Source: a virus (Duplodnaviria; Caudoviricetes). From it: a stretch of DNA of 64,000 bases. Where the stretch lies: IMG/VR virus record IMGVR_UViG_3300027819_000006; one strand, 5' to 3'. Below the pieces are notes generated by a model, which was not told the origin of the DNA, made no database searches, and was given only the letters and a program-made list of their open reading frames with translations. Shown piece after piece: positions 14,458-54,925 of this stretch; within the stretch, counting starts at the first letter, position 1; the number at the start of each line of letters is the position of its first letter. The position numbers were made by a program, and so were the translations under genes.

Positions 14458-16197
14458 TTATACACTTGAGGGTGAACCTAAAAATCCGAGATCCGACACT
14501 GTAACTGTCCCATAATAGTCTGCTCTGACCATGGCTAGAGCCGATCTTTGCATAACGCCTTTCCGTGGAGTAAAGTCATTTGGCTCGAATATTGTCGGTG
14601 TAACAATTAACGGTACATAGGGTGCATATACGAATCCTGCATCTAGTGCTCCCGAACCCTTATACCCTAACAGAATCTTATTGACTGGGAAATAAGGATC
14701 TTTGTATACAGTAAATCTATTTACAAGTGTTCCAACTTTCTCAATACCAAGACTATATTGAACCTCTGAAGGGTCAAATGTAGCATTTGGTTTGAATGTA
14801 GCAATGCTTTCAATAATTGAGCAGACATCTGGAGATGTTACCATCCAGTTTGCACCTGATCTCATATTTCTCTTGTGGATCTCATTGCTTACAGTTGTAA
14901 CAGTTTCGCCTAATGTTTGATACCATTCTTGCTGAGTTCCGAAGAATGCTTGATAGGTGAATGATGTATTTGCAGAACCAGCAGGAATTACTGTAGAAAC
15001 TACATCATTAGCATTCCATTTTACATATCTACCGATAACTCTTGACCATGCAGCTCTTACTGCGGCACCTGAAAGTAGCATTGCAAGAATATTTCTGTCT
15101 ATTTCTGTGGTGATTACTTCAGATAGAATTGTTGTCAATTCTACTTCTGCATCAAGAGCATGATAGGCATTTAGATCTTGTGCTAGTTCAGGAGTCCAGA
15201 TAGCTTTTAGTTTTCTTGTCTCAGCATTTACAGCAATTGAAGAAACTGATATATTGATTTCTGGAATTGCAGATGTTGATTCAAAATCACCTAAACTATT
15301 TGAGCCAGAGTCTACTGACACAACAGTTCTTCCTGGACCAACTATTACTCCTGCAGTTACTGAACCGTCAGACCATGATTTGTCTGGTCCTGGCCAGTTT
15401 GCATTAGGTCTCTTTAAGAATACTTGGATTAGAGCTCCTGTTAGTACAGTCATTGTATGATCCATGTCTCCGAAGAAAGATCCACCTGTTAGTGAGTGCA
15501 GAGCTCTTAGAGTTCTGAATGTTTTTGTACCATCTTCATTTAGCTCACCAGATGCAGCACCTCTGATTTCCATAAGAGAACCAATATCTGTTGCAGCTGA
15601 AGAAGCTAGTGTAAAGTTATAGCCTGAAACAGTTACAGAACCTAACATTTCTGAAGTAGCTGTTACACCAGAGTATGTAGGAGCTGCTGTAGATAGAAGA
15701 AACATTCTTTTTGAATAACCAGTTTGCATGTTGTAGAATCCACCGGATGCGTTCTGTTCACCTACGGCATGTAACTGTGCATTATTATTTGGAGGACCAT
15801 TTTCAAAGTTACCATAGACAGATCCACCACCAGTGAATCCTGCTCTTGTACGATCAAATTTGAAATCAAGATAGAAAATCAAACCTGATGGCAAGCTCAT
15901 CGGTTGTACAGATACTAGTTCGTTGGCTAATAGCTGTCCGAATACTCTTCTTACTAGTGGGAATGCAATCTTTTGAAAGTTTGCGATATCTCCAACTTGC
16001 GAAGCAGATTCGTTCATGGTTCTTCTTAGTTCAATTGCTTGGTTTTCAAGCAATCTTGCCATAATAGGAACTTTGTTGTCAGGTAGCTTTTTTAGCAGTC
16101 CTGTTCTTGACCATTTGGCAACGAGTCTTTTTGCTTCCTCGTTCATGTTTCTTTCATGATGGTCTCTAGTCATTTCTAGAATAAGTTTGTCGTTCAT
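14458..16197 (-). CDS. Major capsid protein (T4 gp23-like)
   Basis: LVSVQPMSLPSGLIFYLDF, ETRKLKAIWTPELAQDLNAYHALDAEVEL and AGFVYAPYVPL...FTPRKGVMQR. Confidence 0.95.
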   Translation of the reverse strand: MNDKLILEMTRDHHERNMNEEAKRLVAKWSRTGLLKKLPDNKVPIMARLLENQAIELRRTMNESASQVGDIANFQKIAFPLVRRVFGQLLANELVSVQPMSLPSGLIFYLDFKFDRTRAGFTGGGSVYGNFENGPPNNNAQLHAVGEQNASGGFYNMQTGYSKRMFLLSTAAPTYSGVTATSEMLGSVTVSGYNFTLASSAATDIGSLMEIRGAASGELNEDGTKTFRTLRALHSLTGGSFFGDMDHTMTVLTGALIQVFLKRPNANWPGPDKSWSDGSVTAGVIVGPGRTVVSVDSGSNSLGDFESTSAIPEINISVSSIAVNAETRKLKAIWTPELAQDLNAYHALDAEVELTTILSEVITTEIDRNILAMLLSGAAVRAAWSRVIGRYVKWNANDVVSTVIPAGSANTSFTYQAFFGTQQEWYQTLGETVTTVSNEIHKRNMRSGANWMVTSPDVCSIIESIATFKPNATFDPSEVQYSLGIEKVGTLVNRFTVYKDPYFPVNKILLGYKGSGALDAGFVYAPYVPLIVTPTIFEPNDFTPRKGVMQRSALAMVRADYYGTVTVSDLGFLGSPSSV

Positions 16198-16241
16198 TTG
16201 TTGCTGTCTCCTGAGTTTATTTTAGTCTCCCTTTATTTAGA

Positions 16242-17081
16242 CTAAAGTTGTTTATGTACTGCTTTTTGAAGTGTTTTACCTATTTCTTCTAAATGCTCGC
16301 CTATTTCTAAAATATATTCTGCATCTTCCTCGCTTATTGAGCTAACTTGTTGAAAATACATATCAAAACCTATAATATCTTTATCTATTTCCATCAGTTT
16401 TTGAAGTTTATTTTTGGTTGTGACAGAACTTTCATTTTCTAAAAGTTGGTTAGATTTTATTTCTTCTTTAATCAATTTTCTTAGTTGTTTTATAGTCATT
16501 GAAATTGAAATTTCCTTATTCAGACTAAAGTTGTTTTTGTTTATTTTAGTAAATTCTTTACTTTGATTTTGAAATTATTACCTTTTGATACTTCTTTTAT
16601 TAAATCTGTTATTTGCTCTGCTGCATAATTAGATGCAGCTCCTGGAGTATATACATTTTTACCAACATCTCTTGCTAACATTTCGTGAAGAATTAGAGCA
16701 ACATTTTCTAATGCTATGTCTAAATCATCAAATATTTTTGTGCTTATTTCTTCTTTAATAATTTTTTTCAATTCTGTTTTTGTTATAGTCATTGTATCTC
16801 TATTTATTAAAATGGCTTGTATATCTTTTAAGAAAAGATATTGCACCATTCCCTACTTTGTAATTAGTTTTAAATTGTTCAAACATATGGCTTAATACAG
16901 AAAACATTAATTCATCTCTTTTATCGCCATCTTGTATTTTTGGAATATTAATTTTTAAAGCTTTTACAAATTCATCAGCTTTTTCATTAATTATATCAGA
17001 AACTCCAGCTTCCCAGCTTTCATTGCCAGGTTCTTTACCAAGCTCTTCTTTAATCAATTTTCTTAGTTGTTTTATAGTCAT
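16242..17081 (-). other. Three small leader-bearing ORFs (16242-16499, 16541-16792, 16800-17081)
   Basis: N-termini MTIKQLRKLIKEEIK, MTITKTELKKIIKEEIS and MTIKQLRKLIKEELG. Confidence 0.8.
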
Positions 17082-17087
17082 TGAAAT
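16462..17087. repeat. Identical 44-bp direct repeat (16462-16505 and 17044-17087)
   Basis: tcttctttaatcaattttcttagttgttttatagtcattgaaat in both places; it covers the start codon and the leader codons. Confidence 0.9.
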
Positions 17088-17100
17088 CTCTTTTGTTTTA

Positions 17101-17142
17101 GAATGTTTGAGCAGTAGTTTTTTAAAGTACTGCTCAAGTTTG
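17101..17142 (-). terminator. Hairpin after the scaffold gene (terminator or RNA stabiliser)
   Basis: TTGAGCAGTA...TACTGCTCAA stem. Confidence 0.55.
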
Positions 17143-17149
17143 ATTCACT

Positions 17150-18208
17150 TTATTTAATCCCTGCCAATTCTTCTAGTCTAGAACCTTCAGATTGTCTGTC
17201 TTCATTCATTTGAGATCTTGTTGACTGTACATTTCTTGAAACTTTTTTGTCTCTTCTTACTGCTGGTCTTACAGAAGCAATACCTTCTTTCAGTGCACTG
17301 TATACTTTCTTCACTTCTAGAATTGTAGAAGCCTCATCAAATCTGTCAATTACTCTTTCTTGTTGTTTTCTGCTCATGGGAGTAGCTTTCAGAAGTTTTG
17401 TAGCATATACAAGTCTTGCATTGAATAGGTTGACCTCATCAATTCTTTTCTTTAGAATTGTCAGAGCTCTTTTGTGTTCAGATAAACTTCTTTTCATCTT
17501 TCTGCTGTTTCTGTATTCTAGTCTTAGTTTTCTGCGAAGAGATTCTTCAACCTTGTCTTCTTCCTCTTCATCATCCTCATCTTTGGTTTCAGATACTGGA
17601 TGTGGTCGCGGTTTGTTTCTACCTCTTCTGCATCTTTCTTCTAGCTCTTCTTTGTCGTCATCATCATCTACAACTTCAATGACTTCATCGTCCTCATCTT
17701 CATCATCCTTTGCTTCATCCATGTCTTCTTCATCATCATCTACTTCCATCATCTCATCAAGATCATCTTCATCTTCGTCTTTTGCCTCTTCCATATCCTC
17801 ATCTTCCTCATCGTCAACTTCTAAAGTAAGAGCTTCATCCATGTCGTCTTCATCATCTTCTTCGTCTTTGTCTTCTGTAACTTCTACTTCGTCATCATCT
17901 TCATCGTCTACAGAAGCTTCCACTACATGATAAGGACCTGGATCACCGTCACCTTCTTTTGAAAGATGTTCTTGAGCTTCTGCATCTTCAGGATCACCAT
18001 CTTTTGGATTTTTTCTCTTCTGCTCGCCATCTGCATCATAACCCTTAGGTTGGTCTGCATTAATAGCAAGTTCTTCATTGATAGTTCTTGATAGTTTTGA
18101 TTGAAGTTGGCTTTTCATAGCTTCGGCTAAAGTTGATTTAGCTGATTCTAGAGCTACTTCTTTCATTTTCTTTGCTGATCTGATTGCATCTTTTACGATA
18201 TCTGCCAT
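17150..18208 (-). CDS. Prohead scaffold/core protein
   Basis: Very acidic D/E-rich middle and conserved EVNLFNARLVYATKL...VKKVYSAL C-terminus; lies upstream of the MCP. Confidence 0.8.
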   Translation of the reverse strand: MADIVKDAIRSAKKMKEVALESAKSTLAEAMKSQLQSKLSRTINEELAINADQPKGYDADGEQKRKNPKDGDPEDAEAQEHLSKEGDGDPGPYHVVEASVDDEDDDEVEVTEDKDEEDDEDDMDEALTLEVDDEEDEDMEEAKDEDEDDLDEMMEVDDDEEDMDEAKDDEDEDDEVIEVVDDDDDKEELEERCRRGRNKPRPHPVSETKDEDDEEEEDKVEESLRRKLRLEYRNSRKMKRSLSEHKRALTILKKRIDEVNLFNARLVYATKLLKATPMSRKQQERVIDRFDEASTILEVKKVYSALKEGIASVRPAVRRDKKVSRNVQSTRSQMNEDRQSEGSRLEELAGIK

Positions 18209-18310
18209 CTGTTAAATCTCCATTTGTTTTTGTTTAAATTGTTATACTTGAAACAGTTACATTTTCATAATATAAATATACATGAATTTTAAGAAAAGAC
18301 ATTTTATAGT

Positions 18311-21300
18311 TTAAAATTTATTATCTGGATGGTTTATTTTAATATTCAAAAATCCTTCTAATTTATCCATAGATTCTACTGCGGTTTTATAAAATTTGTC
18401 TGCTGTAGATCTATCATTTGGACCAAGTTTAGCAACAAAGTCTTCTATCAAATCATAATATTCGTTTTTTACATCTTCTAATCTGTCATAAAGTGTATAT
18501 TCTTTTAAAACTTTCTTTGATTTGTTCAACTCTTCTTTTATCAGCTCTCTCAGTTCTTTTTTTTGTCATTATTCTATTCTCCATTAATTATTATTGTTGC
18601 CACAGTTCCCAAATATTTTACTTTGATCTGAATATCGTCATAGTACCGTAATAATTTATTTCTCATCAATTTTGTCAAATCTTTCATAAAGCTCAAATCT
18701 GATTTAGATCTTGTCTTCTGTTTCTGTTCTTTAAAATCTATTATATAATCATCACACAACCACATGCCTTTGTTGAATGCTGGCATATCTGTTTTGAATT
18801 TTACAATTTTCTTTTTAGGTGCATTATAAACATGTCTCTTCCAACTCTTTACTTTTTTGAATGCTTCTATAGCTTGTACTAATTTGAATTGAACTAATTT
18901 TCTAATTATTCCTCTATGTATTGGCTTGAAGTCATTTCTGTGAAAGTAGAAAGATAGTTCTATATTAGCATCGCTACTACCAAAATATTTAGTACGCACC
19001 TCGATGTGAAAAGGAACATTTATGTCCGATAACTGAAAATCTTCTTTGTCACCTTTTCTGTCAAGAAATAAATCTCTTTTTGCTTCTGATAAATTGATCA
19101 CATTAGTTCTCTGCCATCTGATGTTTTACGTCTTCTTCTTTTTAGTCTTCTTTTCTGAGATTTTGTAAGGTAAAAATCTGATTTACGTATTTCTTGCATG
19201 CGCCCCTCAAACTTCATCTGTCTTTTAAATCTTTTCAGCAATCCTTCTGCTGATTCATTGTCATATGCTTTTATGTATAAGCTCATTTAGTTCTTTCTAT
19301 TGTTTCTTTTTTGGACCATACATCGCATTTGAGATCGCGAATGGATTTGTAGGTTTGGTTTGGCCTGTCTTTTTATCTTTATATGTCTTTGGTATTTGTC
19401 CAGTCTGTACTCCTTTTTTGATTCCTTTTATCATTTTTTCTCTGTCAGCTTCTACATCTTCAGATATTTCTGTATCGCATTCTTCTACAGCATGAGTATG
19501 ATGCATTGCATTTTCCTGAATAAAAGTTTTTATTTCTTCATCTGATATTCCTTGTCTAATTTTTTTATTGAATGCAATTTTTACCATGTTTAGAAGCTCA
19601 TCTTTATCTAATATCCCATTTTCCATATGTAAAGCTATAAATTGAGATATGGCTGATTCTGCCATTTTTCTGAGATTGGGAGATGTAGCTTCTGCAATAG
19701 ATATTTTCGATACTTCTTCTTTTATAATTTGTTTTAATTGTTTTATTGTCATTCATATTTCTCTTAATTAAATTTGAACTTGCTTAATGCTTCACATATT
19801 TCTAGTATTTTATCATTCGAATATCCCTTGAGAAATCCGTGCAAATCAATCCAATTACCAGGTCCACCCATAGCATTTGGCGTGATTTTAATGTAACTAT
19901 TTATTCCCAATTTTATAATAACTTCTCCTTTTTCTTTGTATCTGTTTTCATCTACTTTAAATCCCAAAGATGCAAAATGTTCAATAGTATCTGATATTTT
20001 TGCTTCGTCTTTATCTTTTTCTAGAGCATTTATACCAGCTTGATCACCAGCTTTATATAGCTCTTTTTCTTTATTTTTAAGATTTTCTTGTCTAGGTCCA
20101 TTTACAGAAAAATTTACATATTCTTTGAGATTTTTCTTCAATTCTTGTCTTATAGTTTCTCTTAATTGCTTTATTGTCATTCTATTTATCCAAGCTTGCG
20201 ATCAACACATTAGCTTCTTTTTTAACAGCGTCCATAGCTTTTTCTGCTACTCTTGACATTTTTACAAGATTTGCAACTTTGATCCTAAACTCTTTCAAAT
20301 TGTCTGGATCCATTTTCTCTATCTTTTCTGCTATAGCACTCTGAGAAGATCCCACATACCAGTATCCGCTTTTGCTAGTGAGAAGATTAGCTATATTATT
20401 AAATTGTTTTAACCAAGCTTGCCAAGTATTTGCTACTTTTTTAGCTTCTTCTTTGCTCAATCCTTTTGTTTCTAGTCCTGGATCTTTATAAATAGCTTCT
20501 TGTATCATTTTCTTTAATTCTGATCTTGTTATCTGCATTACTTTATTCTCCATAGTTTGTTTGTTTTCTAATTGTATCCATTCAGGTTTCACTCTTATCA
20601 CATCATTACTACCTTCAAAATTTATAAGAGTAGGATCATTATCTACTAGATAAGCTTGTCCATTTCTACTCATATTTTGCAATTGTTGAGGTGCTTTTGC
20701 TGTAATCATAACTTGTCTTTCATTTCTCTTTCGATAATCTTCTCTTCTTCTAAATTGCATTTCTTTAATCTCTTCTGTCTCATATATGTCTAGAAGTCCA
20801 GGTTCGTAGTAGACGTACTTTTTCTTCTTTTTCATCATGTTTGTTTGTCAAATAAAATCACAGAATATACTAGTTTTTTATCAAGTAATATTTCTCCTAA
20901 TCCTTTATTTGTTTCTTTTACTACTAATGTTTTTCTATTCACTTTCAATATTTCACCAAAAGAACCATCCATACCTCCTCGAACTGGTATTCCAAATGTA
21001 ACTCTAGTTCCAACTTGATAGTCAAAATTTAATTTATCTTGAACAGAATTAAGTTTAGTTTCATCAATTCCATGATCTTTTGGATTATATTCTTTCAAGC
21101 TTTTAACTTCTTCTTTAATCAGTAATTTAAGTTCTTTTATTGTCATTTTATATTCCTCATTCTAAATAGCGGCTAAAATCTATATTTTCAGGATCTATTT
21201 TTCCAGTAGCTACATCTTCTGCTTTAATTTCTGATACATCTACTACTGGTGTAGACAGTATTCTATTTTCTCTTTCTAATATTTTATTATTTATTCTTTC

Positions 21301-23630
21301 TGCTGGATCAACTGCATCCATTACGAGATCAGCAAGCATGTCATTGCCAAACAGTTTCTTGGCTACAGCAGCGCCTTTTTGTCTTGCTGCCATTTCATGC
21401 TGTCTTCTAGCTACAGCTTCTTTTGCTTCTGAAACATTATTGCTACTTGTTTTTTTTGCAGGAACTCTTTCTGAAGGTTCATCATCTTCAAGTTCATCAT
21501 TTTCATATAATGATCTGACTTTCTTACTTCTACTGATAACAGATTCATAGACTAAATCTTTGACTGTAGCTTGGACTTCTTCTTTGATAATTTTTTTTAT
21601 TCTTGGTAACAGAAGTTTTGCTACTTCCAATGCTATATTTTTTGATAATTGTTCTGTACTAACTTTCATGTTTATCCTATATTAGTATATCTTCTAATGT
21701 TTTCTTCATATCTTGCAACTTATGAAATATATTTATAGCTTTATTATTGTCATTTTCTGCCATTTCTATCATTTTATCTTTGAATTTAGATTCATTTTCC
21801 ATAATTATCGAATGCAAATCTTCTATAGCTTTTATATATTGCTTTGCAAAATGATTCATTTCAAGCAGTTGTCTAAGTTTCATTATTTATGCTCTATATA
21901 TTTGTAAATGCTGAATCTATAGCTGCCAATAATGACTGCTATACTTCTAATTTTACTACATCTTTATCAGTTATTCTAGAAATAGCTCCTTTATATTTAT
22001 TAATTAGAGAAACTACTGACTTGCTAGTTGCTGCATATAAAGTTTCTAAATCTGTTGGAAAATTATTTTTAAATGTTTCATCTTGCGATTTAGCCAATTC
22101 TGTTGCAAAACTTTGCTGAATCTTTGTACCGGTAGTAACTATTTTTTGTGCAGCAATTTTGACAGCAGATGTACCAACTTTCTGTCCAAGTCTTCCAATA
22201 GCTTTTAAATAATCCATTGGACCTTCTTGAAGCTGATCTTGCAACTCTTTTCTTACAACCTTTCTTAATTCTTGTTCAGTTATAGTTTTCTTCATCTCTT
22301 TTTAGCTCCAATTATTTGCATGTTTTTTGCTTCGTGTTCCATGTCTCTAAGATTCTTGATCAGAATGTTAGAGTTCTCTTTATTTTTCAGCATTAAATTT
22401 GTTATAGTTTTATCTATTCTTCTCTTGCTTGAATCAAAAGTAGTTTTATCACATCTCATAATCATTCTAAAAACTTCTTTTATGTCGTTGTTTATAATGT
22501 TGTAGTTGTTGATGATTATATCTATAAGCTGATCAGTTGTTTTCATGTTTTTCTATAAAGTTTTTCACTGCATAAATATCATTTACGTCACCATCTTCAA
22601 TTGCTGAATTCAGTTCATTTGATAGCTCTCTAGACGTTTCTGATTCTCCGAATTTATTAAATATTAAGTCTATTCCCTGTTTCATCAAGTCTTTCTTCTG
22701 CTCATCTTCATAGTAGTCATTAGGGTCCGCTTTCCAATTAGATATACCAGTTACTTGCAAGTATCCAGATGTATTCCATGTAGAGAAAGTTGGAGTATCT
22801 TCTTTGAGCAAAAGTTTTATGACTTGTCTAAGCAGCATCTTCTTGTTTCTCCAAATCTATATTTATGTATTTCTTAGAAATTGCAATCACTTTCTTCAAG
22901 TCTCTAAAACTCTCTACTCCATCAAAAACCATGTTGCCTCTGTCTACAGGCTTCTTCTCATTCTTAAATTTAATTAGTGCCCATGCATATACATGTTTAT
23001 ATTTTGCTACTTGAAATTCATATCTGATCATAGAATCTTCTGAATACCATTTCCATAACATGATACCAGGATGCTGTTCAGTGTTTAAGTTAGTCATTTT
23101 ACTGCCAGCAGCATGTAGAAGTCTGTATTCTTCTTTTGTGAACATGAGCTGATGGCCAAATTTAGCATCTATAACTTTGAAGTAGAGAATTTGTCCAGAT
23201 AATATAGCTGAAGATAGTTTTAATTCATTGACAAAATACAGGATTTTTAGTTTCATTTCTTTTTTGGCTCCATAATTTCGTACACTGCTACATTTCCTGA
23301 TTTTAATATTTCTGCATCTAGTGGCATTGTTTCTTTTTCTGTGGGATCATTTAAGTCCCAGTATTGAAGCATGGGTTGACCTTTGACATTCACAAACCCT
23401 AGAGCTCTGATTTCATAGTAGTAGCCGCCTTTCTTGGGATTTTGTACAATTAAATAGTTGAGATCTTTGGCAATGTGATAGACAGAGTGGATACGTTTGA
23501 GACGAGATTTGTTGATATGGATGTCGTAGGATGAGATCCACGAAGAAGCGTCGTCATAAGCAATTTCAGATAAATTTGTAGGTAAAAGAGATTTTAAAGT
23601 AGTCATCATTAATTTTATATTATTCTCCAA
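18311..23630 (-). other. Array of small head-module ORFs, most with the shared N-terminal leader
   Basis: 18311-18569, 18574-19101, 19297-19752, 19764-20180, 20182-20838, 20835-21146, 21157-21669, 21677-21883, 21939-22295, 22292-22546, 22533-22838, 22828-23256, 23253-23630. Confidence 0.75.
19098..19286 (-). CDS. rpsU: Ribosomal protein bS21 homolog
   Basis: 62 aa, NESAEGLLKRFKRQM...EIRKSDFYLTKSQKRRLKRRRR, matching the bS21 pattern. Confidence 0.85.
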   Translation of the reverse strand: MSLYIKAYDNESAEGLLKRFKRQMKFEGRMQEIRKSDFYLTKSQKRRLKRRRRKTSDGRELM

Positions 23631-24563
23631 GAAAAATCAACTTCATCTTGCCAGATACGGACAATTCTGTAGCCCAAATCTTTGGCAATATCATTTTTAT
23701 GTTCATCACATTTAATTCTCATTTCTGCATTAGGAGGGTGTTTTCTTCCAGGTTTACAATGCCAATAGACCCCATCAACTTCCACCAATATGTTAAAATC
23801 TGGCAAATAGAAATCATAATATCTGTTCTCTTCGGGGTAGACTGATCTTAAATTGCTTCTGATATCTTATATTGCTGTCAATGAAATGTTGCTCTACTTG
23901 TTTTTCGCATGTAGTTTCTTTGAATATTTTAACATTTTTGCCAAACATTGGATTGCCAGAACCTTTTCGAGCTTCAGACATTCTAGCTATTCTTTCATCT
24001 GTTTCTTTTGTCAATCCATTATTCCACGATTTAGTTTTTCCAGATGCTAAATTTTCTTTTCTGGTTTTTATTGATTTATCTATAGAATTTTTTAATTTGG
24101 GACTAGTTTCGACAGTCAATCCAGTTTGCCAAGGTTTATTACCTTTTGGAAATCTATAATTTATTCCATTTTCATTATTGTATTTTAAAGAACATGGATG
24201 ACCACAAAATTTATGACATTTATTGTTTTTGATATTTGCAACATTCTCAAACCAATTATTACAATTTAAACATTTAGTGTAGCATTCAAACCATCTTTTA
24301 GCTTTACTAGGTTTTCCTCTTAAAGTATAAGATGTTGAGCAACTAGAAGAGCAACACTTACTATAATTTCCGTTAATATGTATAGTATTATCAAACCATT
24401 TATTACAATTCAAGCATTTTGTAGAGCAGTAAAAACTTTTATTTTTTGTGGGATAATATGGAAACATTTCTTTATATTGTTCATTTGTTATCTGGTGTTT
24501 ATCTCTTAAATGACTATTAGTTAGCGATTTAAATTCTTTTCTACATATAGCACATTCTATCAT
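23615..24563 (-). mobile_element. Zn-finger/NUMOD3 + Vsr-like (DUF559) homing-type endonuclease split by a +1 frameshift
   Basis: Frame 0 ends KQFKISLPRREQIL*. The +1 frame from the CCCC run (23834-23837) reads PEENRYYDFYLPDFNILVEVDGVYWH...DEHKNDIAKDLGYRIVRIW. Confidence 0.8.
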
Positions 24564-24572
24564 TTTATTTCT

Positions 24573-24643
24573 CCTGTTAGATTTTTAAGGGAGTCAGATT
24601 AAACAGGTAATCTGATTAAGAGGTAATTAGTCTCAGCTCCCTT
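24573..24643 (-). ncRNA. Structured cis-regulatory RNA (three-way junction + RBS pseudoknot), copy 1
   Basis: AAGGGAG/CTCCCTT stem, ATTA-CCTCT-TAAT and CAGATTA-CCTGTT-TAATCTG; the loop is complementary to AACAGG at the RBS. Confidence 0.7.
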
Positions 24644-24649
24644 GTTTAT

Positions 24650-25264
24650 TTATTTTAAGTTCAGTATTTCATTTAGAATTTCGTCTAGTAAGATTAGACG
24701 ATTTGATTCTGTAAGTATTCTATAATCTTTTGATTCTCTTAAATTCATAAATGCTCCAGATGTTGATGGATTTCCTACTGCATCAAATGCTATTAAGCTT
24801 AAAGATTCATCAACAACATCAATACCATTAGAATTTCTTTTTGTTTCTCCAAGACATCTACTAGATATTCCCAATTTTATGTTTCTTTCTACTAATTTAG
24901 CCAATATATTTCCTTTGGGAGTATCTAATACTTCTAATTCTCCATATAAATTGTCGCCTTCCCAGAATGTCTTTGTAAATAAATGCGAAACATTCTGCAA
25001 TTCTACACAAGAACTAGAGGGATGATCAAGTTCTCCTAAAGCTCGTCTGTCCTTGATCAACTCCTGATATTTCTTATCCTCCCGTTCCAAGATGCTGCGA
25101 GGATATAGACGCCCATTAGCATTTACTTTATTGGCTATTTGAATAATCCCTTCCATCTTTAAAATCCCATCAGAACTAGTTGAAGGGTGTATGTCGCCAT
25201 GTTCAAATAACATGAACTCTCTCAATAGCTTTCTACTATCTGCTGTATTTTTTTTATCTTCCAT
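24650..25264 (-). CDS. Prohead maturation protease (T4 gp21 family)
   Basis: NANGRLYPRSIL, ALGELDHP, LGISSRCLG and FDAVGNPSTSGA. Confidence 0.93.
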   Translation of the reverse strand: MEDKKNTADSRKLLREFMLFEHGDIHPSTSSDGILKMEGIIQIANKVNANGRLYPRSILEREDKKYQELIKDRRALGELDHPSSSCVELQNVSHLFTKTFWEGDNLYGELEVLDTPKGNILAKLVERNIKLGISSRCLGETKRNSNGIDVVDESLSLIAFDAVGNPSTSGAFMNLRESKDYRILTESNRLILLDEILNEILNLK

Positions 25265-25282
25265 ATATTATTCTCCTTTTTC

Positions 25283-26987
25283 TTAATGTAATGTCTTTGC
25301 AACATTTTCAAATTCCTCTATTGCCAGTGCTAACTGATTATTTGCTTCACTCATATGACCAGTAGCTTTTAAAGTAGCATCTTTTCCTTTTTCTGTTGCT
25401 TGCCACATGAGAAATTTGATTTCTTTTAAATGCTTGTTCAGTTCTCTGATATAGTGATTGCAGTCATCTTTTGTAAATGGTATAGGATTGCTGAACATTA
25501 TAGCTTCTTTGATAAGCTTTCTAAGTTCCGATTTAGTTATTTTCATTGTATTATATCTCATTTCACCACATGTATATTATAGCTTGTCTTTTCATTTACA
25601 TCTATGACTAAATCATACATCTTACTTTTATCATTTGCATCGGTAAGATGAGCAGTAATTATTATTTGCTGAGGACCTTGATAGTTAAGTGTGAAATCTC
25701 CATTTGTTACCATTTTGCCAAGATCTTCTACTTTTATAGATTTCCATGTATGCTGAGACTTTTCTTTTGCTTTGCTTTTATCTGCTTGTTTGAGCTCAGC
25801 TTCTACAAGCTGTCGTATTTGTTTTCTAGTTATTGTCATCTTATTCTCGCCATTACATTTTGCAAATGTTTCAAATCTTGATTTATTAAATCTATATTTA
25901 CAAAATTAAATTTAGTTCTATGTTTTATTTTCAGCAATTCATGCTCAGCATTCATCAAATCATTATGAGCTGTTTCTAATATTTTCTCATCTGCAAAATT
26001 ATCTTCTTCATTTAATATATTCTTCAATGTCATATCTTTGTTCTCCAAATAATTCCAACCTCTTGGCTCTGATTTACTTCTTCCTACAGCATTCTGTGCA
26101 GCTTTTTGTTTGCTTCTTCGAACTACATTTGGGTCTTTTCTGACATCATATATTCCAAGAGGCAGAGCAAAACCAGCAACATTGCCAGTTACAGAAGTTT
26201 CTTTTTTGAGTTTTTTCTTCTTGCGTTTCTTTTTATCAGGTGTTTTCATTATTTTGGCAGCACATCTTTACCATAAGCATTCGATCCATCTTTTTTGGCA
26301 TTATATGTGTCTGCTCCACCAAGCAATGGATTTCGATTTGCATTCTGTCCAGGTGACAGAGTTGTAATCCCCTCTAAAATTAAGCCTGATGATCTAAATC
26401 TATTATACAGAGCTATATGCTCTCCTTGATCATTTTTGTCTCCAAGATATAGATCTTTGTCATAAGCTACTTCTGGAGTCCATACATCTATAAGTTGTGT
26501 TAGAGCCATTTTGTCGTCTAATTTTTCTGTTTTGCTTGGTGTCTTGTCTGTTACTTTGTGAAATGGTTTATTTACAGTTATATCATTGAGCACATTTATT
26601 CCGTCTGCTACACCATTGGCATCAGAATTTCTGTCTGCAAATACTTTTCCTTGCTGATCTATGATTGCTGGCATTTTTATACTCCTATTTTAATTCGCCA
26701 ATAATTTCGTCTATCAAATCTATAACTTCATTCATTTTTTCTTCTATAGAGCCTGCTAATTTGGTAATTTTTCTTTTATCAATGTGTTCTACATTGTTCA
26801 ATACATTGTCTAGAGCTTGTTCTAAATCTGCAGGACCAAAAGAATCTTCAAATTGCTGTTTGAGTTTTTGTATTTTATCTTTTGCTTCAGAAATATGTTT
26901 AGTATTAGCTCTTCTATCATCCATAGACAGAGCTGGTTTCATAGCTTCTTGTATCATCTGTTTAAGTTGTGTTCTAGTTATTTTCAT
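25283..26987 (-). other. Small head-module ORFs (25283-25546, 25558-25839, 25836-26249, 26249-26674, 26685-26987)
   Basis: Leaders MKITKSELRKLIKEA, MTITRKQIRQLVEAE and MKITRTQLKQMIQEA; internal MTLKNILNEE. Confidence 0.75.
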
Positions 26988-26998
26988 TCTATTGTTCT

Positions 26999-27868
26999 CT
27001 AAAATAATTTTAAGTTTTCTTTAAGCTCAATAGCTTTCATAACAACATAGATGTTATCTTCAGTCAATTCTTCTTTCAAGACATTTTTCAGCTTCTGTTC
27101 AGTCATTTCTAGTTTGTCATAGACTGTATCATCTTCTACAAATTCTTTCTTTGATTCGATCTCAACAAGAATCTTTTCTACTTTCTTTTCTAGCCATCTC
27201 TTATATAACTTGTCTGAAGCTGTAGTCAAGTATTTTTCCAAACACTCATTCTGCTCTTTCAGTAAAGTATTTGAATACTGTTTGCTAAATTCATCATAAG
27301 CAAGTACTAAAGCTAAATTATTAGTAGATAACTTTTCTTCATTGTGTTCCATACTATTTAAGTATTCTGCATCTTTCAGAACTTTGACATTTTCTCTGTT
27401 TTCTAGTAAATGCTTGACAATAGTTCTTTCACAATTTAGCTTGTCAATCTGTGTCAATGATACTTTCTTCAGCTTTTCATCTACTAGAGTCTTAAAGCTT
27501 GCAAATAATAGATAATTGTCTACTTTCTCTTTGATAAGTTTCTTATGATCAGTTACTCTGTCAATTCTATTGATCATTCTATCTATTTCTGTATTCACTT
27601 TTGAATAATCTATTTTAGCAGCTTCATCTATCAAGCTGTTGGCATAATTCATTGCTTGATTCTCACCAGCAGCATTACCATATAATACTTGAGAATATAG
27701 TTTCCAAGTTTTAGAAATCTCAGTATTATTTAAATAATGTTCTTTTATAACTCGAAGCAATCTTGAGCTGATATCATTATTGCTGCTGTTGTTCAAATTA
27801 TGAGTTATAGTACTATTCAAAGTTTCAAATAGGACTCCAACATTTCTTAGTTTGTTATGTTTTACCAT
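26999..27868 (-). CDS. Conserved head-module protein between portal and protease
   Basis: MVKHNKLRNVGVLFETL N-terminus, helical, syntenic position. Confidence 0.6.
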   Translation of the reverse strand: MVKHNKLRNVGVLFETLNSTITHNLNNSSNNDISSRLLRVIKEHYLNNTEISKTWKLYSQVLYGNAAGENQAMNYANSLIDEAAKIDYSKVNTEIDRMINRIDRVTDHKKLIKEKVDNYLLFASFKTLVDEKLKKVSLTQIDKLNCERTIVKHLLENRENVKVLKDAEYLNSMEHNEEKLSTNNLALVLAYDEFSKQYSNTLLKEQNECLEKYLTTASDKLYKRWLEKKVEKILVEIESKKEFVEDDTVYDKLEMTEQKLKNVLKEELTEDNIYVVMKAIELKENLKLF

Positions 27869-27888: not shown

Positions 27889-30800
27889 TTATAATTTAAT
27901 TTCTGTTGATGCTGCTAAAATTTGTTTCACTGCCATTGGACCATCAGTACCCTCATATTCATCTACAGACTTACTACCATCAGCATTCTCAGCATTTGCA
28001 AAGTCTTTCAAACCCTCAATAATATTTTTAGTGAATCTATCATGTTGCATTACATCAGTGATATAGCGGTCAAATACATCAGTCTTCTTTCTATTCTTAA
28101 TTATATCTCTTGCTTTTGCTCTTTTTCTAGATATTATTTCTGAGTTAGAAGTTTTTGCTTTTGACAATCCTACATTAGATTCTTTCTTTTTGCCTACAGA
28201 TCTAACACCTGGAGTTCCTTTTGTACCAGCAGGATCAGCAACTTTCATTGGATTCTTGTCTGTATCTGTGAATGTTTCTCCGTCCTTCTTTTTAGGCTTG
28301 CCTCTAGTAGATTCTTTGTCAGAATCTTCATCTTCAGTAGGTTTTTCTTTATTTTCATCTGAAAAATCTGGCATGTCTGAATCTGCAGATTCTCCATCTT
28401 TCCCTTCAGCACCAGAATCATCAGCAGGTTCTTCTGTCTGCTCTTCTTCTTCTAGTTTGCCATTCTGTTCAATCTGTCCAAGCTCCCATTTCTTCTTAGC
28501 GTCAAGTCTTAACTGCTCATTGATCTCTTCGATTTCATCATCTGTTAGACCAAGTACATGTTTCTGTGTATAAGGTTCGGAAACAAGATGAGAATCACCC
28601 ATTCTAGTAGATATATCAAATCTCTTCTCTACTAGTTCAAGATGCATAAGATCCATCACAGTAGAGGGGTTGGTCAGTTTAAGCTCGAAGTTATAAATAT
28701 CATCTTCATCAAAACCTTTTAAAAATAGATGGATTAGACCAATTTTAGATAGTTCAGATATAACAGCTTTTTGTACACGCTGAATTGTGCGAGCGAATCT
28801 AATGTCTTCTTGAGAATTTGCGATAAAAATTCCAGCATCTATAGCAAAATTATGGAATTCATTATCAACAGTTATACATCCAACATCTACAGTATAGGGC
28901 AATAACTTTACTATTTTAATTTTCCAACTAGATAATTCATATGTTTCAAAATTTATTGGATTAAAATCTATAAATCCTTTTACTGGTTCTGATAAATCAT
29001 AATCTTCTAATTTTATTTTTTTACCTTCAAAAGTAACTAACTCGTGATTTTTAGTACAATCTAAATATTTACCATTTTCGAAGTGAACTCTATATATAGT
29101 AGCATTTCTTTGAGTAATACCTGCCCATTTTATTAGGGATGAAATAATTCTATTTTTATTAGAATCATAAGATATAATTGTATCTTTTAATTCATTTTTA
29201 TTGAATAAGTCAATAATTTCTTTTAGGGTTTTAGTTTTACTATGAGCTAAAACAATTTTAGTATTTAAATCTATACATAGAGTCTGCTTGCCACCTAAAG
29301 ATTCCATATTTTGAAGATAAGCTTTAGGTACTCCGAGCGAAGTAAAGAGCTGGTTCTGGATAAACTCGACATCCGCAATCGCGTCTTGATTTGTCCCTCC
29401 TGGAAGTTGTTCTATAGAAGAACCTCTATCTCCACGAATTGGGATGTAGAAATTTTCTAGAATGGAATTCTTAATTATTATTCCGCTTTCATTTCCAGTA
29501 ATATGTTCATAACAATCTCTACTACCTATAGTTGCAAAATTTCCATATTTTTCTACTGTTATACAACCTACATCTTGTTTTTCTTCTAATAATTCAATTC
29601 TGGTTACTTTGTGATTTAATATTCTATTACCTCTTATAGTATCTATATTACAATCAGTTTTTATTTTAAGAAACTCCGGATATTTATGAGATAGAGTTTT
29701 TATTAATAATTTTATAGTTGTATTATTCAAATCAAATTTTCTTTCAATTTGTCGAAAAGTTATAATATCTTTTTTACTACAATAATTAACTATTTTATTT
29801 ATATCTATTTTATTTTTTAAGAGCCAAATAGATTTGTATTCTGTAAATCCAGAATATCCTAAAGTTTTAAATAGACTACTAAATCTTCCTCTACCCAATT
29901 TATCTTTAAAACCATTATTGAATGTAATATTTTTATCTATTAAATAATTTGTAAAATCTTTGTTTTCATTTATCTGTTTCATAGCTTCATGAGCTTTTAT
30001 ATTAACAGTAGAATTATCTAATATAGTATCAATAAATTTTATAAATATATTTTCATCTATAACTAATGACAGCAATTCACTTACATTTTTATAGTGTTTA
30101 TTTTTTTTATCTTTGTCATTCCAGTGATTAGTAAAATGATATAATTTTCCTTCTTTCCAACTTTTTGTCATTCTATTTTTAGAATTTTCTCTACCAATCT
30201 CTGATTTATTATATTCTAAAATTGCATCACCATGAAGTTTTTGATGATCGTGCCAACTCATTACTTGCAGATTGTCTGGATTATTGTTTCTTTTATTATT
30301 TTTGTCTTTTAGAAAATTTTTGTGATGAACAACTGCTCTTCTATTTTTTTCTACTTTGCAATAGTCATCTTGAAATAGTTTACCAGCAACAATTTTATGT
30401 GTATAATCAAATGCATTTGTATTTGGGTCATAAATCATTTCATATCCATTTGTAGATAAATTTTTATATAATGGCATCAAACTATCATTCTCTTTTAAGT
30501 GTTGAGCTTCAATATATTCTCCGATTCTTAATAAAAACTTATGATCTAAAGTTGTATCTATGTAAGTATTATTGTCTAAATGAATACGTATTATTTGCTC
30601 ATTTTTTCTTGTCATTTTAGCATTTATTACTCTTCCTGGAACTATAGCATTATTGTTTTCTCTATCTATCGAATAAACCCATTGATTTTTTTTGCCATTA
30701 TTTCTTTCATTTATTATTTCTTCTAAAGTAAGAGTTCTTCCATCTAATAATTGAACTAAGTTGTTTGCCAGTATACAAGTTGGATTGTATCTCATATCTA

Positions 30801-31617
30801 ACCCTCCAGTACTTTCTGTCACTAGCGGTGTCCTTAACATTTTGTCTCTTACATTGTTCATGTAAGAATCCACATCTTTTGGAGGAATATTTCCAACATC
30901 AACTTTAAACACTAATCTTTCTGGAGCTCTCGATATCCTATAAATTAACATTGCATCAATTGCAAGTATTAGCTGCTTCCAAGCTCTTCTACCAGAATCA
31001 AGAATTGATCTACCATAGGGCAAAAACCTGTCATCTCCAAGAAGTCTAAAATGAGCAATTTGATAAGGCTCGAATGCTTGGTTTGACTGAGTCATCCATC
31101 TAAATCTAACAGATGCAGGATCACCATCGTAGCCTTCTTCTCTCGACATTTCCAACAATGGTAAAGGAATGGCTCCTAAAACTCCATATTTATTTTCTAT
31201 ATCTAATAATGTAAAAACGTCTCCATATTTTACGAGGTTCCTGACCCACAACCATAAGTTAAAATCTATATCTAGTATGTCAAAGTATAATTCTTCTAAA
31301 GTCTTAACTATAGTTTCTTCTTCCGATCTAATATCTAGTATTTTACCTTCATAATTATATGTGGTCGAATCATCCGCATAAATATTACAAGCCGTACTAA
31401 TCTCTGGACTCTGATCCATCTGTTCATAGTCTCTTACTCTTTCAGTTCTTTCAGCTCCACCAGCCAATGCTTGCAAATACAGAGAACTAGCCGATTTTTG
31501 GAAACTGTCATACGGGCGTCTTCCACCCGCACGATTTGCAGGAGAGTCAGTTGGAATTTTTTCTGAAGCTCTCCTCCCGCGAAGTATGCGCTTGAGCAAG
31601 CTGATCTTATCGGCCAT
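27889..31617 (-). CDS. Portal protein (T4 gp20-like) with two inteins
   Basis: IAHFRL...PYGRSIL, DAMLIYRISRAPERLVFKVDVGNIP, ENFYIPIRG and EDIRFARTIQR. Confidence 0.93.
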   Translation of the reverse strand: MADKISLLKRILRGRRASEKIPTDSPANRAGGRRPYDSFQKSASSLYLQALAGGAERTERVRDYEQMDQSPEISTACNIYADDSTTYNYEGKILDIRSEEETIVKTLEELYFDILDIDFNLWLWVRNLVKYGDVFTLLDIENKYGVLGAIPLPLLEMSREEGYDGDPASVRFRWMTQSNQAFEPYQIAHFRLLGDDRFLPYGRSILDSGRRAWKQLILAIDAMLIYRISRAPERLVFKVDVGNIPPKDVDSYMNNVRDKMLRTPLVTESTGGLDMRYNPTCILANNLVQLLDGRTLTLEEIINERNNGKKNQWVYSIDRENNNAIVPGRVINAKMTRKNEQIIRIHLDNNTYIDTTLDHKFLLRIGEYIEAQHLKENDSLMPLYKNLSTNGYEMIYDPNTNAFDYTHKIVAGKLFQDDYCKVEKNRRAVVHHKNFLKDKNNKRNNNPDNLQVMSWHDHQKLHGDAILEYNKSEIGRENSKNRMTKSWKEGKLYHFTNHWNDKDKKNKHYKNVSELLSLVIDENIFIKFIDTILDNSTVNIKAHEAMKQINENKDFTNYLIDKNITFNNGFKDKLGRGRFSSLFKTLGYSGFTEYKSIWLLKNKIDINKIVNYCSKKDIITFRQIERKFDLNNTTIKLLIKTLSHKYPEFLKIKTDCNIDTIRGNRILNHKVTRIELLEEKQDVGCITVEKYGNFATIGSRDCYEHITGNESGIIIKNSILENFYIPIRGDRGSSIEQLPGGTNQDAIADVEFIQNQLFTSLGVPKAYLQNMESLGGKQTLCIDLNTKIVLAHSKTKTLKEIIDLFNKNELKDTIISYDSNKNRIISSLIKWAGITQRNATIYRVHFENGKYLDCTKNHELVTFEGKKIKLEDYDLSEPVKGFIDFNPINFETYELSSWKIKIVKLLPYTVDVGCITVDNEFHNFAIDAGIFIANSQEDIRFARTIQRVQKAVISELSKIGLIHLFLKGFDEDDIYNFELKLTNPSTVMDLMHLELVEKRFDISTRMGDSHLVSEPYTQKHVLGLTDDEIEEINEQLRLDAKKKWELGQIEQNGKLEEEEQTEEPADDSGAEGKDGESADSDMPDFSDENKEKPTEDEDSDKESTRGKPKKKDGETFTDTDKNPMKVADPAGTKGTPGVRSVGKKKESNVGLSKAKTSNSEIISRKRAKARDIIKNRKKTDVFDRYITDVMQHDRFTKNIIEGLKDFANAENADGSKSVDEYEGTDGPMAVKQILAASTEIKL
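28816..29277 (-). mobile_element. Intein 2, mini-intein (154 aa)
   Basis: KQTL|CIDLNTKI ... CTKNHEL ... HNFAIDAGIFIAN|SQED. Confidence 0.9.
29467..30777 (-). mobile_element. Intein 1 (437 aa) with an HNH endonuclease domain
   Basis: YNPT|CILANNLVQLLDG ... IIIKN|SILE; internal VVHHKN...NNNPDNLQVMSWHDHQKLH. Confidence 0.9.
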
Positions 31618-35416: not shown

Positions 35417-35421
35417 ACGTT

Positions 35422-38375: not shown

Positions 38376-38376
38376 A

Positions 38377-54607: not shown

Positions 54608-54925
54608 TCATACTCTTCTTTCTTCGAATGTTGTGTATTTTGGAAATCTTTTATAATCTTTGTTCATCTTGTAGTCATTATACCACCAACTCTTTATTTC
54701 TGTATTCACTCTATCTAGTCCATGTTGCTCTACATATTCTTTAAATCCAAAATTGTCTTTGAACCCATCATAGCTACTCTTCATATCCATAGATCTAAAT
54801 ACTTCTGCAATCTTTGTGATAGTAGCTTTTCTATCTCTTTTTTGTAGCATAGCAAGAGCTATATAAGCTAGTTCAGAGAAAGAGTTAGTTTTAGTAGATT
54901 CATTTAGAATATTTTTTAATTTCAT
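54608..54925 (-). CDS. Leader-bearing hypothetical protein
   Basis: MKLKNILNES start. Confidence 0.65.
   Translation of the reverse strand: MKLKNILNESTKTNSFSELAYIALAMLQKRDRKATITKIAEVFRSMDMKSSYDGFKDNFGFKEYVEQHGLDRVNTEIKSWWYNDYKMNKDYKRFPKYTTFEERRV

What the first reader, a model, noticed from the sequence alone, without database searches (positions are those of the whole stretch)
16242..26987. About 20 unrelated small proteins share an N-terminal leader ending in (I/L)-x-E: candidate capsid-packaging signal
Seen: leaders include MTIKQLRKLIKEE (twice), MTITKTELKKIIKEE, MTKKELRELIKEE, MTIKQLKQIIKEE, MTIKQLRETIRQE, MQITRSELKKMIQE, MTIKELKLLIKEE, MKKTITEQELRKVVRKE, MLLRQVIKLLLKE, MKITKSELRKLIKE, MTITRKQIRQLVE, MKITRTQLKQMIQE, MKLRQLLE and MTLKNILNE, plus outliers at 37626-39284 and 54608. 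The downstream bodies are dissimilar. The genes are interleaved with MCP, scaffold, protease and portal, which carry similar sites (MNE, INE, LRE). Established: the T4 gp21 protease cuts after (I/L)-x-E, and T4 internal proteins use a short N-terminal capsid-targeting sequence. Inference: this is a modular address tag that loads a large, variable payload into the head for injection.
Basis: partly seen in the sequence, partly recalled or inferred. Interest (0 to 1): 0.75.

Follow-up and report, generated by a model that had tools for sequence, protein, structure and literature searches.

The report
Shared capsid-loading-like tag on phage proteins
Twelve otherwise unrelated small proteins in the head-gene cluster of an uncultured 272-kb T4-like groundwater phage begin with the same helical tag, which most likely works like phage T4's capsid-targeting peptide; the same tag, absent from Pfam and PHROGs, heads thousands of protein families in environmental phages.

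Summary
A profile of the leader hits 12 places in the window, all at starts of minus-strand ORFs between 16.2 and 27.0 kb. Nine are solid and three divergent. One is frameshifted in an A8 run and one lies inside a 218-aa ORF. The looser MKL-type "members" are mostly not above chance; only 54925 and 26033 are.

The bodies share no detectable similarity, and one tested body is an ORFan. The genes are interleaved with a gp23-type capsid gene, an acidic scaffold, a gp21-type (S77) protease and a gp20-type portal.

The tag has the same h-x-x-h-h-x-E layout as the T4 capsid-targeting sequence. That pattern recovered T4 IPII, IPIII, gp24 and Alt as a control. The capsid protein keeps a hydrophobic-x-Glu site near the position where T4 gp23 is cut.

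The tag is lineage-wide. There are at least 120 IMG/VR loci with 65 unrelated body clusters, and 8,433 cluster representatives in a 1.84-billion-protein library. Some ORFs carry internal or repeated tags. Pfam, PHROGs and a text search hold nothing for it.

Loading, cleavage and injection remain untested. This scan has noted similar tags before, in this genome and others. Verdict: a new variant of a known kind, of moderate interest.

The parts
16242..16499 (-). Tag protein A, 85 aa, MTIKQLRKLIKEE|IKSNQLLE|N
   Evidence: Profile hit of 24.5 bits; leave-one-out E 3e-7. Its 44-nt leader DNA is identical to that of C.
16541..16792 (-). Tag protein B, 83 aa from the tag Met (the ORF can extend to 16849), MTITKTELKKIIKEE
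   Evidence: The tag Met lies 8 nt after the stop of C.
16800..17081 (-). Tag protein C, 93 aa, MTIKQLRKLIKEE|LGKEPG
   Evidence: 27.4 bits.
18311..18567 (-). Tag protein 12, MTKKELRELIKEELNKSKKVLKE|Y, out of frame with its ATG because of an A8 run at 18555-18562
   Evidence: Independent profile hit of 15.5 bits, E 0.0013; sequence read.
19297..19752 (-). Tag protein D, 151 aa, MTIKQLKQIIKEE|VSKISIAE|A. Its C-terminal 54 aa are homologous to the C-terminus of a 480-546-aa conserved protein of relatives.
   Evidence: E 4e-13.
19764..20180 (-). Tag protein E, 138 aa, a divergent tag MTIKQLRETIRQELKKNLKE|Y; the body is an ORFan
   Evidence: It finds only itself among 5.8 billion clusters.
20182..20838 (-). 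218-aa ORF F with the tag inside it (MQITRSELKKMIQE|A, Met at 20538, with its own GGAG 9 nt upstream)
20835..21146 (-). Tag protein G, 103 aa, MTIKELKLLIKEE|VKSLKE|Y; the body may be a small SH3/Tudor-like barrel (a lead only)
21939..22295 (-). Tag protein H, 118 aa, a divergent tag MKKTITEQELRKVVRKELQDQLQE|G
   Evidence: 19.7 bits with itself in the model, but only 4.5 bits in the leave-one-out test.
25283..25546 (-). Tag protein I, 87 aa, MKITKSELRKLIKE|AIM
   Evidence: 35.9 bits against the environmental tag profile.
25558..25839 (-). Tag protein J, 93 aa, MTITRKQIRQLVE|AELK (divergent)
26685..26987 (-). Tag protein K, 100 aa, MKITRTQLKQMIQE|AMK
21157..21669 (-). Conserved 170-aa head-module protein carrying the tag's second half internally (AKLLLPRIKKIIKEEV) followed by an acidic run; a possible gp67-like core protein
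   Evidence: The motif is conserved in homologs in L004, L005 and L008. Weak BLAST match to T4 gp67, E 0.013. 14.4 bits against the environmental tag profile.
24650..25264 (-). Prohead protease, T4 gp21 / Peptidase_S77 type
   Evidence: Pfam 2e-27, PHROG 4e-47; 35% identity to T4 gp21.
17150..18208 (-). Acidic scaffold protein (352 aa) with 20 h-x-E sites against 11.5 expected
   Evidence: Homologous to the scaffold-position genes of relatives; site count.
14458..16197 (-). Major capsid protein, gp23 type; candidate maturation site TMNE63|S
   Evidence: Pfam Gp23 2e-70; N-terminal alignment with T4 gp23 and relatives.
27889..31617 (-). Portal protein, gp20 type, interrupted by inteins
   Evidence: Pfam Portal_T4 and Intein_splicing.
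54608..54925 (-). Short-tag (type 2) protein, MKLKNILNE|S, 105 aa
   Evidence: 14.9 bits, E 0.002 with a profile built only from relatives.
25836..26249 (-). 137-aa ORF with an internal type-2 tag (MTLKNILNE|E at 26033). Its N-terminal part resembles, by eye only, the STTGxVxGY motif of the protein that relatives encode just upstream of the protease (no significant BLAST match).
   Evidence: 8.9 bits.
21677..22838 (-). Span with two ORFs that have looser leaders, MKLRQLLE (21677-21883) and MLLRQVIKLLLKE (22533-22838); tag protein H (21939-22295) and an untagged 84-aa ORF (22292-22546) lie between them. The two looser leaders are not distinguishable from chance by motif alone.
   Evidence: 5.9 and 2.1 bits.

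Best explanation
The tag is a T4-style capsid-targeting propeptide in a longer, helical form.

Consensus. In the window it reads M-(T/K)-I-(T)-K-x-(Q/E)-L-(R/K)-K-(L/I)-I-K-E-E-(I/L/V). In its full environmental form it continues x-x-h-L-x-E.

Proposed steps, all inferred:
1. The basic amphipathic helix docks the newly made protein onto the acidic scaffolding core while the prohead assembles.
2. The gp21-type serine protease then cuts after Glu in a hydrophobic-hydrophobic-x-Glu site, either I-I-K-E| or the second site h-L-x-E| at the end of the helix.
3. The mature body stays in the head and leaves with the DNA, or is degraded like core proteins.

Shown here: the shared tag, its portability, selection at the peptide level, the T4-type protease and capsid site, and its position in the late head operon.
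For: - Family. There are 12 tags, all at ORF starts inside the head module, on unrelated bodies.
- Peptide-level selection. Conserved residues use different synonymous codons; L6 is encoded by CTA, TTA, CTT or TTG. Only A and C share DNA, an identical 44-nt block with sharp edges, which suggests cassette exchange.
- T4 layout. In the T4 CTS, residues 4 and 7 are the main determinants of targeting, and residues 8 and 10 of processing (PMC9026906). The h-x-x-h-h-x-E pattern maps these onto L6, L9, I10 and E12. L6 and I10 are, after the invariant T2, the best-conserved tag residues.
- Pattern control. The pattern finds IPII, IPIII, gp24 and Alt among 23 hits in 566 T4 ORFs. It finds 11 gene starts within the 10.7-kb region here.
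- Protease and capsid site.
- Boundary site. In 64 unrelated environmental bodies, conservation runs to an h-L-x-E at +12 to +14. It then falls to background while Gly and Pro rise, so a Glu site sits exactly at the tag-body boundary.
- Linkage to head genes. 38 of 120 tag loci (about 9 kb each) hold T4-type terminase, portal, protease or capsid genes.
- Precedent. T-even internal proteins are 'highly diverse' with 'only a conserved CTS' (PMC3012670).
Against: - There are no proteomic or biochemical data for any tagged protein.
- The tag has no sequence homology to the T4 CTS.
- The tag is absent from T4-like cyanophages and a pelagiphage.
- Three of the 12 tags lack h-x-E at the aligned position.
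- Position +8, after the first putative cut, is still a conserved hydrophobic residue (92%), so the helix continues past it.
- A 49-member tagged family is syntenic with gp25/gp6-like baseplate genes.
- Tags occur internally and at C-termini.
- Body pI ranges from 4.7 to 9.4, unlike the basic T4 internal proteins.
Confidence: 0.55

Rival explanations
1. The tag is an uncleaved docking or co-assembly helix. It attaches small accessory proteins to a coiled-coil assembly platform, such as the scaffold core or another virion sub-assembly like the baseplate hub. Many tagged proteins would then be auxiliary core or scaffold components rather than injected cargo.
For: - The helix continues past the first Glu site.
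- The same helix is internal in a conserved 170-aa head protein and heads a conserved baseplate-adjacent family.
- C-terminal and Met-less internal copies exist.
- The bodies are 1.8-fold enriched in h-x-E, as is the scaffold.
Against: - A Glu site sits at the exact end of the conserved tag in about half of unrelated proteins.
- ORFan, fast-turnover bodies fit arms-race cargo better than structural parts.
- T4 core proteins are themselves cleaved, so this rival overlaps the main reading.
Confidence: 0.25
2. The tag is a recognition leader for another partner, such as a modifying enzyme or a chaperone. Another scan report drew that conclusion for a shared phage tag linked to a radical-SAM enzyme.
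For: The function of the 289-aa conserved neighbour (26999-27868) is unknown.
Against: Pfam scans of 30 window proteins found no radical-SAM or other maturase: the ten head-module and neighbouring genes, ten tagged proteins and ten of the larger remaining genes. Most small ORFs were not scanned. The only enzyme in the head module is the S77 protease (apart from an interposed homing-endonuclease-like gene). The tag is linked to T4-type head genes across loci.
Confidence: 0.06
3. The tag has no common function. It would be a remnant of a paralogous family, or a compositionally favoured K/E/I/L-rich N-terminal helix or translation-friendly A-rich codon run in an AT-rich genome.
For: The genome is about 30% GC. 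K/E/I-rich N-termini are common, and the bare h-x-E motif is frequent.
Against: - Synonymous variation at conserved residues.
- The same tag occurs in relatives with 34-41% GC.
- 123 in-frame against 6 out-of-frame matches in IMG/VR.
- 8,433 cluster representatives match at E <= 1e-3.
- The A/C block has sharp boundaries.
- Shuffles do not reproduce the hits.
Confidence: 0.05

Closest known systems
Phage T4 capsid targeting sequence (CTS) of internal proteins IPII/IPIII (MKTYQEFIAE), with Alt and gp24 propeptides, removed by prohead protease gp21
   Same: A short N-terminal tag shared by otherwise unrelated proteins, with the h-x-x-h-h-x-E layout ending in Glu. A homologous S77 protease is encoded alongside. 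A homologous capsid protein has an h-x-E maturation site. The bodies are hypervariable, as in T-even internal proteins (PMC3012670, PMC9026906).
   Different: There is no sequence homology to the T4 CTS. The tag is longer (13-22 aa), net basic and clearly helical, and often has two nested Glu sites. There are 12 copies inside the head operon, against 3-4 scattered genes in T4. The tag also occurs internally, at C-termini and in tandem within one ORF. Body charge is mixed. Function is untested.
T4 prohead core proteins gp67 and gp68 (small, cleaved to peptides by gp21)
   Same: These are small proteins encoded between the portal and protease genes. T4 gp67 contains IDLIKEEK followed by an acidic run, like PRIKKIIKEEV plus an acidic run in the window's 170-aa protein. 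The tagged bodies are enriched in h-x-E, like the window's own scaffold protein.
   Different: The similarity to gp67 is weak (E 0.013 in a single comparison). The tagged proteins are ORFans, not conserved core parts.
Propeptide-bearing ejection and inner-body proteins of giant phages phiKZ, 201phi2-1 and SPN3US
   Same: Many head proteins are processed after Glu by a gp21-related protease, and the propeptides are inferred to target the proteins to the prohead. The paralogs gp53 and gp54 share an identical 15-residue N-terminus (PMC5694885).
   Different: Their propeptides are mostly over 100 residues and the motif is A/S/G-x-E (PMC5694885). The tag here is short, helical and has a hydrophobic P3. 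The head module here is T4-like and includes a scaffold protein.

Membership tests
T4-type CTS-tagged head proteins | The same short N-terminal peptide on proteins whose mature parts are unrelated | tested here: met
   12 tags; bodies without BLAST similarity; 65 body clusters among 117 environmental carriers.
T4-type CTS-tagged head proteins | Tag layout h-x-x-h-h-x-Glu (T4 residues 4, 7, 8 and 10) | tested here: met
   8 of 12 type-1 tags and the type-2 tags fit. The control recovers T4 IPII, IPIII, gp24 and Alt. Three divergent tags and the frameshifted copy (not scannable from its ATG) do not fit.
T4-type CTS-tagged head proteins | A gp21-type (Peptidase_S77) prohead protease encoded by the phage | tested here: met
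T4-type CTS-tagged head proteins | Sequence homology of the tag to MKTYQEFIAE | tested here: not met
   The tag profile finds nothing in the T4 genome, while it does find matches in LR756508 and immuto. A peptide of 10 residues gives little power.
T4-type CTS-tagged head proteins | Tag removed by cleavage after Glu during head maturation | not testable with these tools
   Only site patterns are available. Virion mass spectrometry or a protease assay is needed.
T4-type CTS-tagged head proteins | Tag sufficient to load a protein into the prohead, and the protein ejected with the DNA | not testable with these tools
   Requires reporter fusions in a cultured carrier.
T4 internal proteins IPI-III in the narrow sense | Small basic DNA-associated mature proteins | tested here: not met
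   Mature-part pI ranges from 4.7 to 9.4 and net charge from -7 to +5.
phiKZ-like propeptide ejection proteins | Long (>100 aa) propeptides with the A/S/G-x-E motif | tested here: not met
   The tag is 13-22 aa with a hydrophobic P3 and P4; the motif is from PMC5694885.
Leader-guided modification systems (RiPP-like, radical-SAM) | A dedicated maturase gene next to the tagged genes | tested here: not met
   None found among the 30 window proteins scanned against Pfam; most small ORFs were not scanned.
Any curated protein family or domain | A match to a Pfam or PHROG model | tested here: not met
   No significant hit for the ten window tag proteins scanned (K and the frameshifted copy were not), the window's 170-aa protein, or five tagged proteins from other loci (L026, L027, L029, L039 and the L005 330-aa protein). 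The sixth, the L086 360-aa protein, has no Pfam hit and matches one unannotated PHROG (phrog_16028, 1.1e-09) in its C-terminal 36 residues, far from the tag.

The most novel reading that the evidence does not exclude
The tag is a portable dock-and-cut module of a large uncultured branch of T4-like phages, probably with Bacteroidota hosts. It would define a sequence-predictable 'injectome' of thousands of protein families. That set would include natural polyproteins whose internal tags are cut to release several cargo proteins. The two tag classes in this one phage (long MKITK...LIKEE and short MKLKxLLxE) would sort cargo to different sites or at different times.
Probability: 0.15. Interest if true: 0.8.

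Novelty: new variant of a known kind. Interest (0 to 1): 0.55.

Why it matters
If the tag really loads proteins into the head, a simple sequence rule would identify the proteins that a very large group of environmental phages may deliver into the host with their DNA. That group has 8,433 cluster representatives in a 1.84-billion-protein library. These proteins are candidates for anti-defence and host-takeover functions, and nearly all are ORFans.

The tag could also serve as a packaging handle for engineering such phages, as the T4 CTS does for T4. The principle has been known since Mullaney and Black (1996). What is new is this particular tag, its scale, and its internal, tandem and C-terminal forms.

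A cultured carrier, Flavobacterium phage immuto, makes the idea directly testable.

Tried and rejected
- Body function. Pfam and PHROG scans of ten of the twelve tagged proteins gave nothing significant. phmmer against PDB sequences for three bodies gave nothing.
- Structure. A single-sequence AlphaFold model of G had pLDDT 50 and was unusable beyond showing the tag as a helix. ESM Atlas gave only SH3/Tudor-like leads for G.
- Homologs. A search with E found only itself.
- Reads. I tried to check the A8 frameshift. Two groundwater DNA runs hold the stretch, but nothing was laid, so there is no information. No RNA holder is listed.
- Whole genome. It is not held, so tags outside the window could not be counted.
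- Cultured carriers. tblastn of the 49-member family against cultured phages found no match.
- Tag in model phages. The tag profile found nothing in T4, Syn9, S-PM2, HTVC008M, P-SSM2, RM378 or Mel-JY01.
- Literature. A full-text search for six tag strings found no paper.
- Rejected lead. The tag-like stretch near the C-terminus of the 289-aa protein (27106) is not conserved in homologs.
- Helix amphipathicity. It is only moderate and not significant against shuffles.

Full report
**Context.** The window is a stretch of a low-GC (about 30%) phage genome with nearly all genes on the minus strand. The gene products identified are:
- a gp23-type major capsid protein, 14458-16197 (Pfam Gp23, 2e-70);
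- a Peptidase_S77 prohead protease, 24650-25264 (2e-27; 35% identical to T4 gp21, with GELDHP and GISSR aligned to T4's GELNHP and GVSSR);
- a gp20-type portal interrupted by inteins, 27889-31617;
- a T4-type large terminase, 32305-33999.

An acidic 352-aa protein (17150-18208) sits in the scaffold position and matches the scaffold-position genes of relatives. One tagged protein is recorded on a 271,887-bp contig, and two groundwater metagenome runs hold the sequence. The closest capsid relatives are an uncultured 484-kb phage (LR756508.1, 38%), Flavobacterium phage immuto, Microcystis phage Mel-JY01 and Rhodothermus phage RM378.

**The observation.** A profile built from 11 leaders finds 12 sites at 15.5-27.4 bits. 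All lie at the starts of minus-strand ORFs between 16242 and 26987, and nothing else in six frames exceeds 7 bits.
- Leave-one-out models recover 8 of 11 at E <= 1e-3. Three tags (E, H, J) are divergent, but they still rank just below the rest. Shuffled windows reach at most 14 bits.
- The twelfth copy (18567) was not used to build the model. It is out of frame with its ATG because of an A8 run where A7 would be in frame.
- One tag (20538) lies at residue 101 of a 218-aa ORF, which overlaps the upstream gene by ATGA. The tag has its own GGAG nine bases upstream.
- The leader-stripped bodies show no significant pairwise similarity.
- None of the 11 in-frame tagged bodies has an ortholog in relatives whose protease is 65% identical. 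The capsid, portal, protease, scaffold, 289-aa and 170-aa proteins all do (the frameshifted copy entered only as a truncated ORF).
- Protein E finds only itself among 5.8 billion clusters.

**Looser members.** A profile of the short MKLKxhLxE leader, built only from relatives, supports 54925 (14.9 bits) and the internal 26033 (8.9 bits). It does not lift 21883, 22838 or 37626-39284 above shuffles. The bare (I/L)-x-E motif is weak evidence, since it occurs at 2.2% of positions and 12 of 64 outside proteins have one at residues 7-15.

**Selection acts on the peptide.** Conserved residues are encoded by different synonymous codons: L6 by CTA, TTA, CTT or TTG, I10 by ATT, ATA or ATC, and T2 by ACT or ACA. 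Only A and C share DNA. They have an identical 44-nt block (6 nt upstream plus 38 nt of coding sequence) with abrupt loss of similarity on both sides. That looks like cassette exchange rather than gradual divergence. Protein D supports modularity: its last 54 residues are 48% identical (E 4e-13) to the C-terminus of a 480-546-aa protein that relatives encode at the same position, just before bS21.

**Comparison with the T4 signal.** Published work shows the following:
- The T4 internal proteins carry propeptides of 10-19 residues that target them to the scaffolding core and are removed by gp21.
- The first 10 residues of IPIII suffice for incorporation. Residues 4 and 7 matter for targeting, and residues 8 and 10 for processing.
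- T-even internal proteins are diverse, with only the CTS in common (PMC9026906, PMC9958956, PMC3012670).

This gives the layout h-x-x-h-h-x-E. As a control I scanned the whole T4 genome for that layout within the first 17 residues of ORFs. It gave 23 hits in 566 first-ATG ORFs, including IPII, IPIII, gp24 and Alt, and also gp61.1. The same scan of the window gives 11 hits at gene starts inside the 10.7-kb region. In the long tag, the layout maps onto L6, L9, I10 and E12. L6 and I10 are, after the invariant T2, the best-conserved positions.

**The capsid cut site.** T4 gp23 is cut after LTE65. In the alignment, that column reads LRE|A, VSE|A, ISE|A or LKE|A in relatives, and the window has MNE63|S three residues further on. 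The protease therefore probably keeps hydrophobic-x-Glu specificity. That is an inference from homology.

**The tag is lineage-wide and uncatalogued.**
- LR756508.1 has at least 13 copies, and immuto has 3 profile matches plus a fourth found by eye: gp156, gp176, gp190 and gp198.
- Closer relatives carry one to three tagged genes right after the protease gene.
It gave 123 in-frame against 6 out-of-frame matches and 117 ORFs of at least 40 aa.
- Their bodies fall into 65 clusters, of which 61 are singletons.
- 38 of the 120 loci (mean 9 kb) hold T4-type terminase, portal, protease or capsid genes.
- Several loci carry 4-7 tagged genes. One is from a 273-kb contig that has four of them directly after its capsid gene.
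- A profile of 45 tags finds 8,433 cluster representatives at E <= 1e-3 among 1.84 billion proteins. The ten I looked up are all metagenomic and carry no functional name.
- Pfam and PHROGs have no model for the tag, and a full-text search for six tag strings found no paper.
- The tag profile found nothing in T4, Syn9, S-PM2, P-SSM2, HTVC008M, RM378 or Mel-JY01.

**Where the tag ends.** I aligned 64 unrelated bodies on the motif. Conservation that the search did not impose appears at M-K-(I/L)-T-K upstream, at a hydrophobic +8 (92%), at +11/+12 (L), and at Glu +14 (48%). After that, information drops to background and Gly and Pro rise. The full tag is thus about 22 residues, MKITKxQLKKIIKEELxxhLxE. 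It has two nested h-h-x-E sites, the second exactly at the tag-body boundary. Six of the window's 12 tags have this second site: LLE, IAE, LKE (three times) and LQE (sequences).

**Complications.**
1. The helix continues beyond the first putative cut.
2. A conserved 170-aa head-module protein (21157-21669) carries AK-h-LLP-x-h-x-K-h-I-x-EE-h internally, conserved in three relatives. It aligns weakly with T4 gp67, matching IDLIKEEK plus an acidic run (E 0.013).
3. The largest body cluster (49 members, about 150 aa, including immuto gp156) lies immediately upstream of gp25-like and gp6-like baseplate genes. It shares about 25-30 N-terminal helical residues with the 170-aa family.
4. Tags also occur near C-termini, and repeatedly inside single ORFs. 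Some of these internal copies have no Met, which gives polyprotein-like arrangements.
5. The bodies are 1.8-fold enriched in h-x-E (39 observed against 21.2 expected), like the scaffold (20 against 11.5).
6. Body charge is mixed, with pI 4.7-9.4.

T4's own internal-protein genes are not in its head module either, so a gene's location does not exclude head packaging. Even so, these facts keep open a plain docking-helix role and a degraded-core-component fate.

**Verdict.** The most likely reading (about 0.55) is a longer, helical analogue of the T4 CTS. It would dock proteins on the acidic scaffold core and be removed by the S77 protease. The main rival (about 0.25) is an uncleaved assembly or docking helix. 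The principle is known. This tag, its abundance and its internal and tandem forms appear undescribed. Other reports of this scan have noted similar tags in this genome and in other phages.

Noticed in passing
18555-18562 (minus strand A8 run): The twelfth tag gene reads ATGAC-A8-GAACTG. With A7, the ATG would be in frame with the tag and the 72-aa ORF. This could be an assembly error, a pseudogene, or slippage at the homopolymer.
   Followed up: partly
16233-16249 and 16516-16532: The 17-mer AACTTTAGTCT(A/G)AATAA occurs exactly twice in the window, upstream of the capsid gene and upstream of tag gene A (0.12 expected by chance). It may be a late-promoter-like element that was duplicated along with a tag cassette.
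   Followed up: partly
19297-19752 versus L005:14322-15962: Tag protein D keeps only the C-terminal 54 residues (48% identity) of a 480-546-aa conserved protein that relatives encode just before bS21. It looks like a remnant fused to a tag.
   Followed up: partly
20182-20838: A 218-aa ORF is coupled to the upstream gene by an ATGA overlap and carries the tag at residue 101, with its own GGAG. Two products or a processed two-part protein are both possible.
   Followed up: no
IMG/VR loci L026, L027, L045 and others; immuto gp156: A conserved ~150-aa family has the tag-like N-terminal helix, a low-complexity linker and a C-terminal GIDISKLDF-type or VPDFSGLM-type motif. In the two loci inspected (L027, L045) and in immuto it lies immediately upstream of gp25-like and gp6-like baseplate genes. 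It has no Pfam or PHROG model.
   Followed up: partly
P0002, P0005, P0007, P0019 (metagenomic proteins): These single ORFs hold two to four tag-plus-body units. Some internal tags lack a Met, so the arrangement looks like a polyprotein.
   Followed up: partly
T4 genome, gene 61.1 (start 19130, minus strand): The 54-aa T4 gp61.1 starts MKTFKEFIKE|D, very close to the IPII/IPIII CTS MKTYQEFIAE.
   Followed up: no
40254-44945: A PrkA-like kinase, a DUF444 protein and a SpoVR-like protein are encoded as a triad in a phage.
   Followed up: no
34084-37149: A CobS-like AAA_5 ATPase and a CobT-like VWA protein lie as a pair next to the terminase gene.
   Followed up: no
27889-31617: The portal gene carries intein splicing domains and an HNH endonuclease hit inside the gp20 homology.
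   Followed up: no
Ribosome-binding sites across 16200-27000: The tag genes mostly have weak GAG or GGA ribosome-binding sites. The capsid, scaffold and protease genes have GGAG or AGGAG.
   Followed up: no
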